Below are positions 17,701-63,400 of a DNA stretch of 64,000 bases, one piece after another; the stretch's first letter is position 1, and each line of letters opens with the position of its first letter. The stretch is from the human T2T-CHM13v2.0 reference genome, Homo sapiens: assembly GCF_009914755.1 (NCBI RefSeq), contig NC_060944.1; one strand, written 5' to 3'. A model generated the notes under the pieces. It saw only the letters and a list, made by a program, of their open reading frames with translations, ran no database searches and was not told the origin of the DNA. Position numbers and translations under genes: made by a program.

Positions 17701-20700
17701 TCACTTGTGGAGGGGACGGAAGATGACCTGGCTGATCTGGCCAGGGATGGTGTAGAAGACCAGGAGGAGGAAGACGGTGAGCAGCACCAGTAGCAGCAGC
17801 ACCAGGGTGCGCCAGTACCGGCGCCAGATGAAGAAGACAAAGGTCTTCAGCGGGTTCACAAACCAGTTGAAGGAAGTTTTGGGGCGGCTGTTGAGGAGAA
17901 GAGTGGTGTCAGGATGAGGAGGAAGCCCCTTGACCACCCCCACCTCCCCATCGGCCCAGGCTGTGGCCCCAGCCCCGGTGCCTGACTCACCTGGGTTTCT
18001 CCAGAGGCTCTGGCTGCTTCCGCCCCTTCCCCACTGGCCGTTTCTCGGCCTCCTCCACAGTCAGCAGCTCAAACTCTGCCTCCACCTTGCCCTAAAAAAG
18101 ACATTCCTGCATCACTGGGAGCAGGGGGCGGGCTCAGGCCCCAGCTCAGCCTGGCCTCTGCCCACGGGCACCCACCGTGAGGATGTACACATTGCCACCC
18201 ATGTCTGTGAACTCCAGGTCTTCTGGCCGGCCCTTCCTCCTCCTCTGCTTTCGCTTCTTCTTGCCAGCCTGAGCCTCCTGCGCCTCCCGCTCCACGTCCT
18301 CTGCCTCCTTCAGCTTCACTACCGGCCACCAGCCCCTCAGGCGGCGGCAGCGAAACAGATTGCACCTCGGCCCGGCCCCATTGCGGGCCAGCTGCACAGA
18401 GCAGAGCTCGGGGCCCCGGGCCCCACGCACCATGTCTGGTAGCTGCAACTCCAGGGATCCTGCAAGTCCAGAGCACACCAGATTAGGCATGGGATCAAAG
18501 TCTCATTGTGCCAGGGGTGAGGAGGCAACACACCAAGGTTGTAAATTGGGGCATTGAAAGTTGTTGCAGTGTGCGGTCAGGCCACAGCTATAGACCACCC
18601 AGACCACAGCCCAGCGGTCCACCCATTGCTACTTCCCAGTGGAAGAGGGCCAAGGGTCGGGATCAGAGTGCCAAGGACCAAAGGCTGTGGAGTCGGTGTC
18701 AGGGTGACAAGCTAGGGTCAAATCAGAGTTGAATCAGAGACTCTGGGTGGGAATGGAGGTTACTGTGGTCTAGGCCTAATTAACTCAGTAATTAGGCCAG
18801 AAAGCAAAGGTTTCACACCTCGGGTCCAAAATCCCAAGATTCAAGGTTGGGTCAGAGTAGGGAACTGGGGGACGGAAGTGAGGGCTGGAGGCAGGGGCGG
18901 AGGTGAGGGCTGGAGGCAGGGGCTGAGGGTGGGGAAGGCTAAGCATTGTAATACCAAGGAAGTCATTGGCAGAGATGCGGTCATAGTCCCAGACCTGCAG
19001 GACCAGCACTGCAGGCTGCCGGAACTCCGCCTCCTCCAGGGCAAAGGGTCCAGACCTGCGCCAGACGCTCACCTCCCGCTCCGTGGGCAGGTAGTCAAAG
19101 CGGAACACAAAGCGCCAATTGAAGTTCCCCTCCCCAGTCAGGGAGTTGAAGTGAACGTCTGTCTCCTGCTTGTCATGCTCCAACCCCTTCACCCAGCTGG
19201 GGCCGGGGTGGGTGAGCGTCAGGGCTGGAGCTACATGGAGAACCCACTCCTCACCCCGCTCTCAGCACCACGGAGGGCCTGGGGTCGGGGCTCTGGACTC
19301 AGCCCGAGGGCCCACACCCATTTGCAATCCCCCTAGTGCACCGCCGTTGCCCCGCCCGGCCAGCAGCCTACCTCTTCACATAGATGTCACTCGACATCTC
19401 TCCGGTGAGTGGATTCTCGTCATCCAGAACCACATCCTCCGTGTTCCAGATGACAACTCTGAGCTCATAGCTGGGGGGCACATTAGGGGGTGGCTTCAGA
19501 CTCTCGAGTGGGGCCCTAAAAGGGGCTGCAGGAAGCAGGAGGGACCTGGGCCGGGGCCACTGACATTCACTGGACACCTGTGTGCCCAGCAGGGGAATCC
19601 AATGCCTGTGGTCCCATGAAGGGAAGCCCCAGGTGTCACTGACCACCCTGGCCACAGCAGATGGCCCCAGGAATGGTCTGTGGGGCCAGCGAGGTTCTCC
19701 TTCCCGTGAATTTAGAATCAGGGCGCTGCACTGTTGCATGGTGTGGCATCAGATGCAAAGCTGGAGCTACCACAAGCCAGAGTTTGGGGATGTAGAAAAG
19801 TGAGTGAACAGAAAGCCAGTCTGCAGGGAGAAGAGGGAGGATGAGAGATGGGGGACAGGAGCATACAGCGCCTGAGGGACAGGAGGGCTGCGACACTCTG
19901 GACCCTACCCGCATATAGCCCTGTCTTTGGGGGCCATGGGGTTGCCTGGATAGCTGTTTTCTCCAGCCCAGCATCAATTTCCCCTCATTTGTTGACAGCA
20001 CCGTGATTTTCTGCTGGTGACCCACCCCCACCCCAACCACCCCTCCCCACCACCACTGTCAATCTATGGAATTCTGGTGGGGCAGGCCCCTCCCTCCCTG
20101 GCTGGACGGGGTCGGGGAGACATCACTGGACTGGCCAATTCGAGTATTACAGCCCCCTAACCACAATGATTGGTTCTTCAGGGCACAGCATTTGACCCAA
20201 GCTGGTCGGCTGAGTCAGCCCTGAGGCTTTTGCTGTAACTGGGAAAGAGGTGTTTGTTTCTGCTCAAGTGGCCTGGCTGAGATGTAAGCCTCGCACTGTT
20301 AGATGCCACTTTGCCCCCAGCCCTGCAGAGGGCTCCCTGAGAGCGACACCAAGGAAAGCAGAGCCCAGAGGCAGAAAGTGACAGGCTGCTGATATCCGAG
20401 CATCTGCATTCAGCCCTGTGTGAAGTGGCTGTGACCCACACACAACTCCACTCAGATGAGCTTAGGTGGGAAGGGGGCTTACCAAAAGGTACTTGGACTC
20501 AATTTACAAGAGACACTCAACTTGCAATGCTTTTGAATAACAGGGAATTTAATGACACCTAACTGAAAAGCCTGTGATGAGCAACCTCTGCCTGCTTCAC
20601 TGGGGACCCGGGTTTTCAGAGGAGCCTTGTACAGGTAGACCAGGATGTGCACCCGCCTTGGGAGGAGGCGACAGAACTCTCACCTGATTGGCTGCCGAGG

Positions 20701-60400: not shown

Positions 60401-63400
60401 AGCGGGGTCGCGAGGATGGGGCTTGCGGTTGGGAATGGGCCCTATGGAGCCCTATGGACCGAGGCGAGTGAGGCCAGATTTGCCGCGGCCAGAAGCGCTC
60501 ACCCGCGCGGCCCGGATGGGAGATCCGCCTCAGGTCCGGCACGTGCGTAGCGAGTGCCGCGTCGACCAGGGGCGCGTCGTCCCGCAGCTGCAGGCGGAGG
60601 CTGCGCGTCAGCGGCGGGAAGAGCTCCACGAAGCTCAGCTGCTCGTTCCATTCGGGCGCCGCCGCCTCGGCGCTCACCGACGTCTCGCCCTGAAGGTGGC
60701 GTTAAAGACAGGAGAAGGGAGATCAGCGCGGAGTCGGGGCCGGAGCCGCGGCGCCGTGGGCCCCGGAGGGACTTACCTCCTGCCCCAGGAAAGACACCCG
60801 CACATAGGGCTCCACCAGGACGCGCTGGTCGTGCAGGGCGCGGACCAGGCTGCCCAGCAGCCCCAGGCGCAGCGCGGGAAGCCCCTCGGCGCGGTACAGG
60901 CGCACGCGGAGCCGCGCCCATGGCCTCTCGGCGGGCACCCCGCGCGGCAGGAGCAGGTTCCTAGGGGAGGGGGCACCGAGCGGGGGGGGAGAAACTGGGA
61001 TCTCGGCCCCTCCCCTTATCCGCGCCCCACGGCCACCCCCGGATCCATGTCCTCCTCCCCACCTCACCCCGGCTCACTTCTCGATGTCCGAACAGTGCCC
61101 TGGGGCCGGGGGTAGCATTGGAGGGGGCAGGTCCCCGCGCGCCCTCACGGACAAGGTGACCTTAATGAAACCCTTGGTCCCGGCGCGGGTGTCTCGGGGA
61201 TCATGCAGCGGAACCCATCTTTGGTAGAACTGGCCATCTAAGGGCGAAGGGGCGAGCCAGGGGTAAGGGGCGACCGGCGGGACGCACAGGGTGGCCGTGA
61301 GGCTATCGGAGTGACGGACAATGGCCAGGGCTTCTCTGGCTCAGCAGGGAGGGGCGGAAGTGCCAAGAGTTCAGCCTCCGCCAGAGATGGCCCTCTCCGA
61401 AGTGAGTGTATAGGGGTCCATGCGGAGTCACTGCAGGGTCAATCTCTAGGGCCCTTGTCCGTGCAGAGTCTCAATAAGGGGACGATTCCATACCTGGCTG
61501 GTCCAAGATGATGCCCAGGTCCATCCTGAAGGTGCCTATCCGGGTGGCCATAAAGGGGAGGGTCTGCGAATGGAAAGCCTTGGGGGAAGGTGGTGTTAGT
61601 CCTGCAGCTTTCTCATCCCCCCTTCTCTGAAGGACACTGGTCACCCCTACCCCACTCACCGTGATCTCCAGCAGCAAGTCTTGGAGACGAAGCCGCGTGT
61701 CATGAAATTCGAACAAGAAGTACTGAATTGAAGTGGGGATGAGAGGTCAGATGTGAAGGGCTCCTGCCAGCTTACCCAGGTCTCTTGCTCAGAAGACCCT
61801 CCTTCCCCCACCCCCAACCCTCTCACTGCAAGCTTTTCCTGGATCAGCAACCCCCCAACCCCAACCCATAGGCCCAGCATCTGGCTCCATTTCCACCTAG
61901 GCCTCACCCGCTCCGGGAATAGTTCTCACATCAACCCCTCCCATTCTGTCAGGCTCGCCCTCTTCTGTGGTGGCACCCACCTCATTGTAGAAGGGGCAAC
62001 TGGTCCCACGCTGTGTGGCGGTCACACGGCGCTGCCCCCCCACTTGCACGGCCACATAGGGGTTAATGTTGACTCCCACCAGTTTCTGGGCTTCCAGCAC
62101 AGTGACTCCCACCTGAGAGGTACAGAAGGATGAGGAAAGGAAGCCAGACCTGCCTGGGTGGAGGGAAAGAACATGCGTGCCAGAAGAGGTAGTACTTCCA
62201 AGGGTTAGGCCCTGGAAAAAGAGTAGTACCTGGAAGTCTTGAGCTCTGGACACCTGGAAGGGATCCCCATGGGCCAGGGCCCTGGCGCGGCTGGAGAGAA
62301 GCTTAAGGTTAGCACTCACTTGGTCCCTCCCCTGCACACGCACACGCGCGCACACACACACACACACTTGCTTGGTGCTGGGAATGATGTTTTCTCTCCC
62401 TCTGAATTTTTGGATTCCAGGTCCTTCAGGTCATGTCTTGCTGCCTCCATCTCAACCCTGCACCCACAATTTGACTCATTCCTGGAGCCCGAAACCATTC
62501 ATTCATGCAACAGAGGTTTATTGAGTACCTACTATGAGCTAACACTGTCCCAAGCACTGGGACGCTGTAGTGAAGAGACAAATCTTGCCCTCATCAAGCT
62601 TTCATCCCCTGCATGTGTGTGAGCCACTGTAACTATGTGTATGAACATGGCAGTGTCTATGCCTATGAGCAAGTGACTGGAGAATCCACCCTTCCCACAC
62701 CCCCTGGGACTGTGTGTTTGTGAGGGCAGATGGGTGTGGGAGCAGGTGTGCCGTGGGTACAAGTTACCTCTTGAGGGGGCTGAACATAACACCAGAAAGT
62801 TCCACGTCAGGCTCATCATCCAGGTCCTGCTCCAGCTCAAGCTCCAGCTCATTCTCTTCATCGTCCTGCTGGCCTAGACTTCGAGCTAGCCTGCGGCCTA
62901 GAGCCACTGCCCGCCGCTCCAGCTGGGCCTCCCCAGGCCTGATAGGAAAGACCCTCAAGGGACATGCCTGGAACCCATCACCCATCTCCAGGCAATCCCT
63001 TGACTTCCTGGAGCCTTGGACTGACCCCTGACCCTTGAACTGATCCCACTGATCCTAGGACCAGTTATTGACCTTGTGGCTGACTTCACTGATCCCAGGA
63101 CAGACTCTTAACCCTGGGACATTTCTAATTCCAGAACTGACCTCTGATTCTAGGACTGACCTCTGACCCTGGAACTGATTCAGTTCTGACCCAAGACCCT
63201 GGGGCTGCCCCCATATCACTGGCTCCTAACTCCAAGACTGACTCAGTGACTCCAGGTCATCCCCACATACTTACTCCAGTTCCTGGAAGCCCACATTGGG
63301 GATGATTAACTCGAAGCTGGGGAATAATAAATGAAAGGACTAAGAGGAACATTCCTAACTACAGAGCGGCACCTGCTCAGCACACGTCCAAGGGTCACTG

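What the first reader, a model, noticed from the sequence alone, without database searches (positions are those of the whole stretch)
17701..62787. The FER1L4 'pseudogene' keeps an intact 1794-codon ferlin ORF from an internal ATG: a candidate hidden C2A-less ferlin protein
Seen: 41 exons with canonical GT-AG ends and matching phases join into 5670 nt with no stop or frameshift (1889 codons + TGA). The first in-frame ATG (62787, context GTT-ATG-T, purine at -3) starts MFSPLKS... and yields 1794 aa with C2B-C2F, FerI/A/B and the C-terminal TM anchor. Established: human FER1L4 is annotated as a pseudogene and studied as a lncRNA, while natural type II ferlins lacking C2A exist (FER1L6, short otoferlin isoforms). 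Inference: any lesion must lie in the roughly 100 C2A codons upstream of the window. Reinitiation or an internal promoter could therefore still produce a membrane-fusion protein, and some lncRNA phenotypes could be protein effects. Alternatively the inactivation is simply very recent.
Basis: partly seen in the sequence, partly recalled or inferred. Interest (0 to 1): 0.85.

Follow-up and report, generated by a model that had tools for sequence, protein, structure and literature searches.

The report
Young FER1L4 pseudogene, already-catalogued open frame
The long open ferlin reading frame in human FER1L4 is real but is already a database entry, and because the gene's original start codon sits one base out of frame it is most likely a recently disabled gene rather than a hidden protein.

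Summary
A 41-exon, all GT-AG chain on the minus strand gives 5670 nt, 1889 open codons plus TGA. The first in-frame ATG is at 62787 and the ORF is 1794 aa. Single exons match C2, FerI, FerB, dsrm_Ferlin and Ferlin_C.

The ORF is not hidden. Its FerI string at 154-186, Pro-1781 and end at 1794 match UniProt A9Z1Z3 as printed in PMC9333456.

The chain is not RefSeq's transcript. NR_119376.1 differs at four places and stops at 35477.

The lesion is not inside C2A. The frame stays open for 1992 codons into exon 1. There the retained ATG, in an ACCATGG context, is one base out of register after codon 5, as shown against OTOF exon 1.

Ten out-of-frame ATGs precede 62787, and four of them open ORFs that overlap it.

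A neutral model gives a 4-36% chance of no further lesion over 3-6.5 My.

Best reading: a young unitary pseudogene. Translation, ape orthologues and population data could not be tested here.

The parts
62785..62787 (-). First in-frame ATG of the ferlin frame. It is Met-1 of the 1794-aa ORF, which equals Met-1 of UniProt A9Z1Z3.
   Evidence: Context GGTGTTATGT.
17701..17703 (-). TGA stop of the ferlin frame.
63501..63592 (-). Coding-chain exon 1 of 41. Open frame upstream of the ATG, at the end of the C2A-like region.
   Evidence: OTOF colinear match.
63275..63316 (-). Exon 2. It contains an out-of-frame ATG at 63296.
62768..62938 (-). Exon 3. It holds ATG 62787. Upstream of it are four out-of-frame ATGs (62861, 62852, 62819, 62816), whose ORFs end at 62024.
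62230..62290 (-). Exon 4.
61981..62112 (-). Exon 5, first half of the first C2 after the ATG (C2B).
   Evidence: Pfam C2 26.6 bits. OTOF 42% over 66 aa.
61660..61722 (-). Exon 6.
61494..61578 (-). Exon 7.
   Evidence: OTOF and FER1L6 hits.
61078..61237 (-). Exon 8, FerI.
   Evidence: Pfam FerI 43 bits. It holds the start of the string printed for A9Z1Z3 residues 154-186.
60777..60960 (-). Exon 9.
60503..60689 (-). Exon 10, part of a C2 domain.
   Evidence: Pfam C2 17.2 bits, below the cut-off. OTOF E 2.8e-18.
59534..59895 (-). Exon 11, the largest exon (362 nt).
59084..59192 (-). Exon 12.
58744..58915 (-). Exon 13.
   Evidence: No Pfam match.
58537..58657 (-). Exon 14.
57985..58085 (-). Exon 15.
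54638..54725 (-). Exon 16.
54448..54564 (-). Exon 17.
44099..44251 (-). Exon 18, FerB.
   Evidence: Pfam FerB 80.4 bits. It scores 81.5 bits in the whole-genome scan, against 69.6-90.1 for the other five ferlin loci.
42916..43069 (-). Exon 19.
42662..42786 (-). Exon 20, start of a C2 domain.
   Evidence: Pfam C2 19.1 bits, below the cut-off.
42104..42238 (-). Exon 21.
   Evidence: OTOF hit 42391-42101.
41815..41988 (-). Exon 22.
41271..41387 (-). Exon 23.
41015..41176 (-). Exon 24.
38244..38442 (-). Exon 25.
38042..38100 (-). Exon 26.
37822..37953 (-). Exon 27.
35774..35816 (-). Exon 28 (43 nt).
35584..35684 (-). Exon 29 in its 101-nt coding form. NR_119376.1 uses a donor 56 nt earlier (exon 35640-35684), which shifts the frame and leads to TAA at 35477.
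   Evidence: Donor scores are 8.5 (coding) and 8.9 (NR).
35369..35506 (-). Exon 30.
35155..35271 (-). Exon 31.
24080..24207 (-). Exon 32, first half of a C2 domain.
   Evidence: Pfam C2 29.7 bits..
23728..23898 (-). Exon 33, second half of that C2 domain. NR_119376.1 runs on to 23488.
   Evidence: Pfam C2 28.6 bits. OTOF 60% over 65 aa. Weak donor, 2.2.
22686..22840 (-). Exon 34, ferlin dsrm-like subdomain. NR_119376.1 starts this exon at 23338.
   Evidence: Pfam dsrm_Ferlin 44 bits..
23080..23529 (.). Masked repeat. It supplies the extra NR_119376.1 exon sequence and contains the NR intron 23339-23487.
21641..21801 (-). Exon 35 (161 nt), absent from NR_119376.1.
   Evidence: OTOF E 7e-11 and FER1L6 E 1.7e-11.
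20684..20769 (-). Exon 36.
19372..19470 (-). Exon 37.
18955..19196 (-). Exon 38, last C2 domain.
   Evidence: PDB matches: otoferlin 9qe2 6.7e-26, myoferlin 1e-23, dysferlin 2.4e-23. Pfam C2 18.9 bits.
18176..18459 (-). Exon 39, Ferlin_C profile positions 1-64.
   Evidence: 77.8 bits.
17991..18091 (-). Exon 40, Ferlin_C profile positions 65-97.
   Evidence: 42.1 bits.
17701..17887 (-). Exon 41 coding part. Ferlin_C profile positions 99-154, including the transmembrane helix (ORF residues 1758-1780) and Pro-1781.
   Evidence: 71.5 bits..

Best explanation
Human FER1L4 is a young unitary pseudogene of a type II ferlin. It keeps its promoter, its ancestral start codon, its full exon set and an otherwise untouched reading frame.

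Shown:
- The retained ATG in exon 1 has an ACCATGG context and reads five codons that parallel OTOF's first five.
- After those five codons the ferlin frame continues one base out of register.
- In the ferlin frame the ATG region therefore reads through two stops.
- The ATG itself opens a 44-codon ORF that ends in exon 2.
- Downstream, 1992 codons of ferlin frame remain open.
- The 1794-aa ORF from the first in-frame Met is the conceptual translation stored as UniProt A9Z1Z3.

Inferred:
- Ribosomes mostly load at the ancestral ATG or at one of nine further out-of-frame ATGs, so little or no ferlin is made.
- The transcript behaves as a non-coding, NMD-exposed RNA.
- The rest of the frame is intact because too little time has passed for further damage.
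For: The chain:
- The chain and ORF were rebuilt exactly.
- 24 of 41 exons have same-strand OTOF matches in strictly monotonic order.

The upstream frame:
- It stays open through the four upstream exons, to TAA at window-equivalent 66452. That is 1992 open codons.
- Those exons are colinear with OTOF's C2A exons, with 4 matches in order at E 0.056-1.5 each.

The lesion:
- OTOF exon 1 has five residues after Met-included start and then 22 up to the conserved FRG.
- FER1L4 has five in the ATG frame and the homologous 22 in the +1 frame.

Start-codon census:
- 10 of 10 ATGs upstream of 62787 are out of frame.
- 4 of them overlap the 62787 start.

Transcript evidence:
- NR_119376.1, the only RefSeq transcript, breaks the frame at 35477. 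It includes repeat-derived exon sequence and skips exon 21641-21801.

Neutral model:
- 617 of 17928 single-base changes make a stop.
- The total disabling rate is 0.34-0.50 per My.
- P(no further lesion) is 0.23-0.36 at 3 My and 0.04-0.11 at 6.5 My.

Literature (passages read):
- FER1L4 is in the table of 50 'evolutionary recent' human pseudogenes with coding Fer1l4 in mouse, rat and rabbit (PMC7555810).
- It is listed as a lncRNA derived from a partial gene loss (PMC10195156).
- It is called a pseudogene/lncRNA in ferlin reviews.

Exon 1 is single-copy in this genome, 1 match.
Against: - One base of offset is the only lesion I could find in about 6 kb of frame.
- Domain scores equal those of working paralogues. 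FerB scores 81.5 bits against 69.6-90.1 for the other five loci.
[quoted passage not shown] That is not what strong NMD would predict.
- I could not see any ape, archaic or population sequence. The age of the shift, the human-branch dN/dS and the loss-of-function frequencies are therefore untested.
- If the shift is older than about 10-15 My, the neutral model fails (P below 0.05 to below 0.006).
- The rates in that model are recalled values, not computed here.
- Supplements that give the per-primate status (PMC7555810, PMC10195156) were closed.
- My literature searches for protein evidence covered open-access full text only, and I opened 2 of the 111 papers found.
Confidence: 0.75

Rival explanations
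1. A C2A-less ferlin of 1794 aa is made from Met-62787, by reinitiation, leaky scanning or an internal promoter. It acts as a membrane-trafficking protein in gastric mucous cells.
For: - The ORF is intact, with C2, FerI, FerB and Ferlin_C/TM.
- There is a purine at -3.
- FER1L6 is described as starting at C2B.
- RNA levels are high in gastric mucous cells.
- An Ensembl transcript was once used as a Fer1l4 protein in a tree (ENST00000615531.4 in PMC6589578).
Against: - Ten out-of-frame ATGs lie upstream. The first has an optimal context.
- Four of them lie within 74 nt upstream, in the same exon, and open ORFs that run past the start. Even a transcript starting in the preceding intron would carry those four.
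- CpG observed/expected is 0.15-0.22 at 62501-64000, and no promoter, CAGE or enhancer feature is annotated there.
- +4 is T.
- The RefSeq transcript truncates this ORF at 1163 codons.
- The donor of coding exon 33 is weak, 2.2 against a median of 8.5.
- No main-text protein evidence turned up.
Confidence: 0.08
2. A near-full-length ferlin is still made from the ancestral ATG because the one-base shift is bypassed. Possible routes are an unshifted allele still segregating in people, a minor exon-1 donor that restores register, or near-cognate starts just after the shift.
For: - The ancestral ATG and its optimal context are retained.
- All C2A-like codons are open.
- 2 of 3 alternative GTs in exon 1 would put the ATG in frame with 1991 or 1977 codons.
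- In-frame GTG and CTG lie 19 and 37 nt after the ATG.
Against: - The alternative donors score 4.3 and -5.1 against 11.7 for the annotated donor. One in three GTs would restore register by chance.
- No transcript evidence was seen.
- Near-cognate starts downstream of an optimal ATG are inefficient (established knowledge, recalled).
- Either rescue would garble or delete the first strand of C2A.
- Both this assembly and the RefSeq curation treat the locus as a pseudogene.
Confidence: 0.07
3. The frame is kept intact by selection on the RNA (the published miRNA-sponge roles), not on a protein.
For: - Many papers assign lncRNA functions to FER1L4.
- PMC10195156 reports selection on more than half (17 of 33) of such loss-derived lncRNAs.
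Against: - RNA-level selection does not specifically forbid stops or frameshifts, so it does not predict an open frame.
- The neutral model already accounts for the open frame if the loss is recent.
Confidence: 0.05

Closest known systems
UniProt A9Z1Z3 (human Fer-1-like protein 4, conceptual translation)
   Same: - Same start, with the FerI string at residues 154-186.
- Same transmembrane span at 1758-1780, Pro-1781 and last residue 1794.

Checked against the numbers printed in PMC9333456.
   Different: None was detectable at the points I could check. I could not fetch the entry itself, so identity over the whole length is inferred from three anchor points.
Mouse, rat and rabbit Fer1l4 (coding orthologues; mouse A3KGK3 in PMC2923515)
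   Same: Same gene family member and synteny, according to PMC7555810 and PMC7140416.
   Different: Annotated as protein-coding, whereas the human copy has the start codon out of register. I could not obtain their sequences. The word search only sees proteins 0.55-1.75 times the query length, and only single exons could be submitted.
OTOF (otoferlin), the human type II paralogue
   Same: - 24 of 41 exons match colinearly at 30-71% identity.
- The C2A exons and the first five residues are parallel.
- The last C2 exon matches the solved otoferlin structure 9qe2 at 6.7e-26.
   Different: OTOF's ATG is in frame and the gene is coding.
FER1L6, a ferlin described as naturally starting at C2B
   Same: It is a type II ferlin. 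The exons I could fetch match colinearly. It is the precedent for a ferlin working without C2A (PMC9333456).
   Different: FER1L4's genome does encode open C2A-like exons. Its 'C2A-less' form is therefore a by-product of the lost start, not its native architecture. Only half of the FER1L6 locus was fetched.
Other young human unitary pseudogenes listed with FER1L4 in PMC7555810 (for example CMAHP, FBXL21P)
   Same: Transcribed relic of a gene that is coding in rodents and lagomorphs.
   Different: Here the visible damage is a single one-base shift. I did not examine the others.

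Membership tests
Ferlin family (sequence membership) | Several tandem C2 domains. | tested here: met
   Pfam C2 in 6 of 35 scanned window exons, belonging to 5 domains. Three are above the cut-off: 26.6, 29.7 and 28.6 bits.
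Ferlin family (sequence membership) | FerI and FerB motifs. | tested here: met
   FerI 43 bits and FerB 80.4 bits, both above the cut-off. This is one of six FerB loci in the genome.
Ferlin family (sequence membership) | C-terminal Ferlin_C region with a single transmembrane anchor. | tested here: met
   Ferlin_C profile positions 1-64, 65-97 and 99-154 fall on the last three exons. A hydrophobic run lies at ORF residues 1758-1780.
Ferlin family (sequence membership) | FerA. | tested here: not met
   0 Pfam FerA matches in 35 of 41 exons scanned. Single-exon scans are insensitive, and PMC7140416 says FerA is not conserved in sequence in type II ferlins.
Type II ferlin (no DysF) | Absence of DysF domains. 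| tested here: met
   No DysF family among the matches in 35 of 41 window exons and 3 of 4 upstream exons. The closest paralogue matches are OTOF and FER1L6.
Protein-coding gene | Ancestral start codon in frame with the conserved ORF. | tested here: not met
   The ATG at window-equivalent 66465 is in frame +2 relative to the ferlin frame and gives a 44-codon ORF.
Protein-coding gene | An annotated transcript that carries the full ORF. | tested here: not met
   NR_119376.1 is the only RefSeq transcript in the file. Its frame ends at TAA 35477. Ensembl models were not available to me.
Protein-coding gene | Evidence of translation (Ribo-seq, peptides). | not testable with these tools
   No reads or spectra were available. 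Literature searches found no main-text claim. Supplements were closed.
Protein-coding gene | Purifying selection on the human branch. | not testable with these tools
   No primate or population sequences could be reached.
Unitary (unprocessed, parent-less) pseudogene | A disabling lesion in a gene whose orthologue is coding elsewhere, with introns kept and no functional copy in the genome. | tested here: met
   - One-base register shift.
- 44 introns kept.
- Exon 1 is single-copy.
- Coding in mouse, rat and rabbit, from the literature only.
Unitary (unprocessed, parent-less) pseudogene | Recent, human-lineage origin. | tested here: inconclusive
   The neutral model is compatible with an origin up to about 6.5 My ago. 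PMC7555810 calls it evolutionarily recent. The per-species data are in closed supplements.

The most novel reading that the evidence does not exclude
Human FER1L4 still yields a ferlin protein in gastric and bladder mucous cells. It could be the C2A-less 1794-aa form. Or it could be a near-full-length form made when the one-base shift after codon 5 is bypassed, by an unshifted allele in some people or by a minor exon-1 donor. Part of the large 'lncRNA FER1L4' cancer literature would then be reporting protein effects.
Probability: 0.12. Interest if true: 0.7.

Novelty: already known. Interest (0 to 1): 0.3.

Why it matters
If the frame were translated, a sixth human ferlin would exist, and dozens of lncRNA studies would need protein controls.

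As it stands, the useful points are narrower:

2. The statement in ferlin papers that human Fer1L4 'begins with C2B' reflects a truncated model of a pseudogene. The locus holds open C2A-like exons.
3. The only lesion visible in this assembly is a one-base register shift right after the start codon. This makes the locus a clean test case for dating a gene loss and for asking whether a freshly disabled gene is still partly translated.

Tried and rejected
1. One search gave 41 frame-preserving solutions. None had the required 478 nt removed, so I rejected this.

2. I looked for in-frame extended versions of the 43-nt exon and found none. The answer was instead a donor 56 nt further on in the next exon.

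3. An unfiltered tblastn of all minus-strand open pieces against the paralogue DNA was swamped by Alu matches. I filtered by strand and by the repeat mask.

4. Pfam on the three upstream C2A-like exons and five other short exons gave nothing useful. Colinearity with OTOF was used instead.

5. Literature searches for protein evidence gave no main-text claim of a detected FER1L4 protein:
- One search was badly framed (min_terms 2). None of the 30 papers listed held FER1L4.
- One search found 3 papers and listed 2. I opened one, which treats FER1L4 as non-coding.
- One search found 111 papers and listed 25. I opened 2, and both mention it only as a lncRNA.
- Searches found nothing relevant beyond PMC10195156.

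6. I did not run the search for homologous proteins (0 of 3), the Atlas search, structure prediction or fold search. Only single exons of at most 120 aa could be submitted, so full-length orthologues (about 1800-2000 aa) were outside the length filter, and a spliced protein may not be typed. Orthologue comparison, human-branch dN/dS and the primate status of the shift therefore remain undone.

7. The Rfam scan of the window gave one match, Metazoa_SRP at 27454-27601, which is unrelated to the finding.

8. The mouse protein length I remember (1992 aa) is recalled, comes from no call, and is not used as evidence.

Full report
WHAT IS THERE

RefSeq gives one FER1L4 transcript, NR_119376.1. It has 44 exons and 6713 nt, and four of the exons lie beyond the window's right end. 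All 43 of its introns are GT-AG.

I fetched the 10 kb upstream of the window as L001. Translating NR_119376.1 shows one frame open for 1361 codons. The frame runs from just after a TAA in exon 1 (window-equivalent 66452) to a TAA at 35477. Its only Met within the first 250 codons is at 62787. From 62787 it gives 1163 codons.

From the totals, 27 upstream and 6 downstream RefSeq exons had to be kept, and 1014 nt in 8 exons had to lie between 35816 and 21641. Four observations fixed those eight exons.

1. One internal intron in each of the two long NR exons could not give the numbers.

2. Reading the three frames showed that only the first 171 nt of NR exon 23488-23898 look like ferlin. The same holds for the last 155 nt of NR exon 22686-23338. 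The rest is Alu-like. That rest overlaps masked repeat 23080-23529, and the NR intron 23339-23487 lies inside the repeat.

3. The intron below 22686 holds an unannotated 161-nt exon, 21641-21801. It matches OTOF (48% over 62 aa, E 7e-11) and FER1L6 (E 1.7e-11).

4. The last 99 nt come from keeping the 43-nt exon and using a donor 56 nt further on in the next exon, giving 35584-35684.

The resulting chain:
- 41 exons, with 40 of 40 acceptors AG and 40 of 40 donors GT.
- 5670 nt, 1889 codons and TGA at 17701-17703.
- First Met at codon 96 (62787).
- ORF of 1794 aa.

WHAT THE FRAME ENCODES

I scanned single exons only, because joined sequence may not be submitted. This covered 35 of 41 window exons.

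| Family | Result |
|---|---|
| C2 | 6 exons from 5 domains; 26.6, 29.7 and 28.6 bits above the cut-off, 17.2, 19.1 and 18.9 below |
| FerI | 43 bits |
| FerB | 80.4 bits |
| dsrm_Ferlin | 44 bits |
| Ferlin_C | the last three exons cover profile 1-64, 65-97 and 99-154 of 154 |
| FerA | no match |
| DysF | no match |

Further support:
- The 80-aa exon 18956-19195 matches solved otoferlin (6.7e-26), myoferlin and dysferlin structures.
- 24 of 41 exons have same-strand OTOF matches in strictly descending order.
- The genome has six FerB loci. FER1L4's scores 81.5 bits, inside the 69.6-90.1 range of the other five.

Membership in the type II ferlins is therefore clear.

THE ORF IS ALREADY KNOWN

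PMC9333456 (passages read) built full-length models of 'human Fer1L4' from UniProt A9Z1Z3. It prints three anchors for that entry:
- the FerI string at residues 154-186;
- a transmembrane span at 1758-1780 with Pro-1781;
- an extracellular tail at 1781-1794.

My ORF has that exact string at 154-186, Pro at 1781 and 1794 residues.

A9Z1Z3 also appears elsewhere:
- in the ferlin phylogeny of PMC2923515;
- listed as 'pseudogene' in PMC6770723;
- PMC6589578 used an Ensembl transcript as Fer1l4 in a protein tree.

The 'hidden' protein is thus a catalogued conceptual translation. What is not in the papers I could search is any evidence that it is made.

WHERE THE GENE IS BROKEN

In fact the frame stays open through all four upstream exons, giving 1992 open codons in all. 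Those exons are colinear with OTOF's C2A exons. There are four matches in order, individually weak at E 0.056-1.5.

Exon 1 keeps an ATG in an ACCATGG context. OTOF exon 1 reads five residues and then 22 more up to the conserved FRG at the exon end. FER1L4 reads five parallel residues in the ATG frame, and the homologous 22 in the frame one base over.

The simplest account is one extra base between codons 5 and 6. The register shift is shown. Which allele is ancestral is inferred.

In the ferlin frame this region reads two stops. In the ATG frame it gives a 44-codon ORF that ends in exon 2, with 43 exon junctions downstream. Exon 1 is single-copy in the assembly.

CAN MET-62787 BE USED?

On the coding-chain mRNA, 62787 is at position 679 and is the eleventh ATG. 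All ten before it are out of frame. The first is the ancestral one in an optimal context. The last four (62861, 62852, 62819, 62816) lie in the same exon and open ORFs that end at 62024, past the start.

Its own context has G at -3 but T at +4.

For an internal promoter I saw no sign. CpG observed/expected is 0.15-0.22 at 62501-64000, and no promoter, CAGE or enhancer feature is annotated there. The only CpG-rich stretch (60001-61500) is downstream of the ATG, at the 5' end of the opposite-strand lncRNA.

A transcript starting in the preceding intron would still carry the four overlapping ATGs.

Splicing is also not clean, judged by a matrix built from the gene's own 41 donors:
- the coding donor at 35584 scores 8.5, against 8.9 for the frame-breaking NR donor;
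- the donor of coding exon 33 scores 2.2, against a median of 8.5.

IS AN INTACT FRAME SURPRISING?

In the 1992-codon frame, 617 of 17928 single-base changes create a stop. I used recalled rates: 0.5e-9 substitutions per base per year, and indels at 6-12% of that. I also counted 176 essential splice bases. The total disabling rate comes to 0.34-0.50 per My.

| Time since the shift | P(no further lesion) |
|---|---|
| 1 My | 0.61-0.71 |
| 3 My | 0.23-0.36 |
| 6.5 My | 0.04-0.11 |
| 15 My | below 0.006 |

An intact remainder therefore needs no selection if the shift arose on the human lineage. It would need selection if the shift is shared with other great apes.

What the literature says on age:
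- PMC7555810 (abstract, Results part 1 and table passage read) lists FER1L4 among 50 'evolutionary recent' human pseudogenes with coding Fer1l4 in mouse, rat and rabbit. It says the homologues of such genes are presumably functional in four or five non-human hominoids. The per-gene primate data are in supplements I could not open.
- PMC10195156 (passages) lists ENSG00000088340, citing the FER1L4 lncRNA papers, as a lncRNA derived from a partial gene loss.

EVIDENCE AGAINST MY READING

- The damage is minimal and the domain scores match working paralogues.
[quoted passage not shown] That sits uneasily with efficient NMD.
- I had no reads, spectra, primate genomes or population data.
- My searches for protein evidence cover open full text only. 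I opened few of the hits.

VERDICT

The frame is real and the lesion is upstream. But the ORF is already catalogued, the lesion is a register shift at the start rather than damage within C2A, and initiation at 62787 is disfavoured.
- The best explanation is a young unitary pseudogene (0.75).
- A translated C2A-less ferlin (0.08) or a rescued near-full-length ferlin (0.07) remain open and are cheaply testable.

Noticed in passing
L001:2386-2533 (- strand; window-equivalent 66386-66533): Exon 1 holds three GTs between the retained ATG and the annotated donor. Used as donors, two of them (exon ends at window-equivalent 66405 and 66447) would put the ATG in frame with the whole ferlin frame, giving 1991 and 1977 codons. 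Their own-gene donor scores are 4.3 and -5.1, against 11.7 for the annotated donor. This is purely combinatorial and I saw no transcript evidence.
   Followed up: partly
L001:1093-2449 and window 63275-63592 (- strand): Papers that say human Fer1L4 'begins with C2B' or lacks C2A rely on the truncated A9Z1Z3 model. The locus holds open C2A-like exons that are colinear with OTOF's C2A exons.
   Followed up: partly
window 60001-61500: A CpG-island-like stretch (GC 0.64-0.74, CpG observed/expected 0.64-0.98). It lies over coding exons 8-10 and the 5' end of the opposite-strand lncRNA LOC124904891 (60648-63345). It may be that lncRNA's promoter. On the minus strand it would start transcripts downstream of Met-62787.
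   Followed up: no
window 22841-23338 and 23488-23727: The extra exon sequence of NR_119376.1 is non-coding and partly repeat-derived. The NR intron 23339-23487 lies wholly inside masked repeat 23080-23529.
   Followed up: partly
window 23722-23730: The donor of coding exon 33 (AGT|GTGGGT) scores 2.2. The median of the gene's 41 other donors is 8.5 and the minimum is 1.8. This may explain the read-through seen in the RefSeq transcript.
   Followed up: partly
window 27454-27601 (+): An Rfam Metazoa_SRP match of 73.6 bits (gathering score 70), inside the 11-kb intron. It is probably a 7SL-derived repeat rather than an SRP RNA gene.
   Followed up: no
window 47273-47598 (+): The processed pseudogene RPL37P1 lies in the 10-kb FER1L4 intron, next to annotated H3K27ac hESC enhancers at 47442-50030. 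This comes from the annotation only.
   Followed up: no
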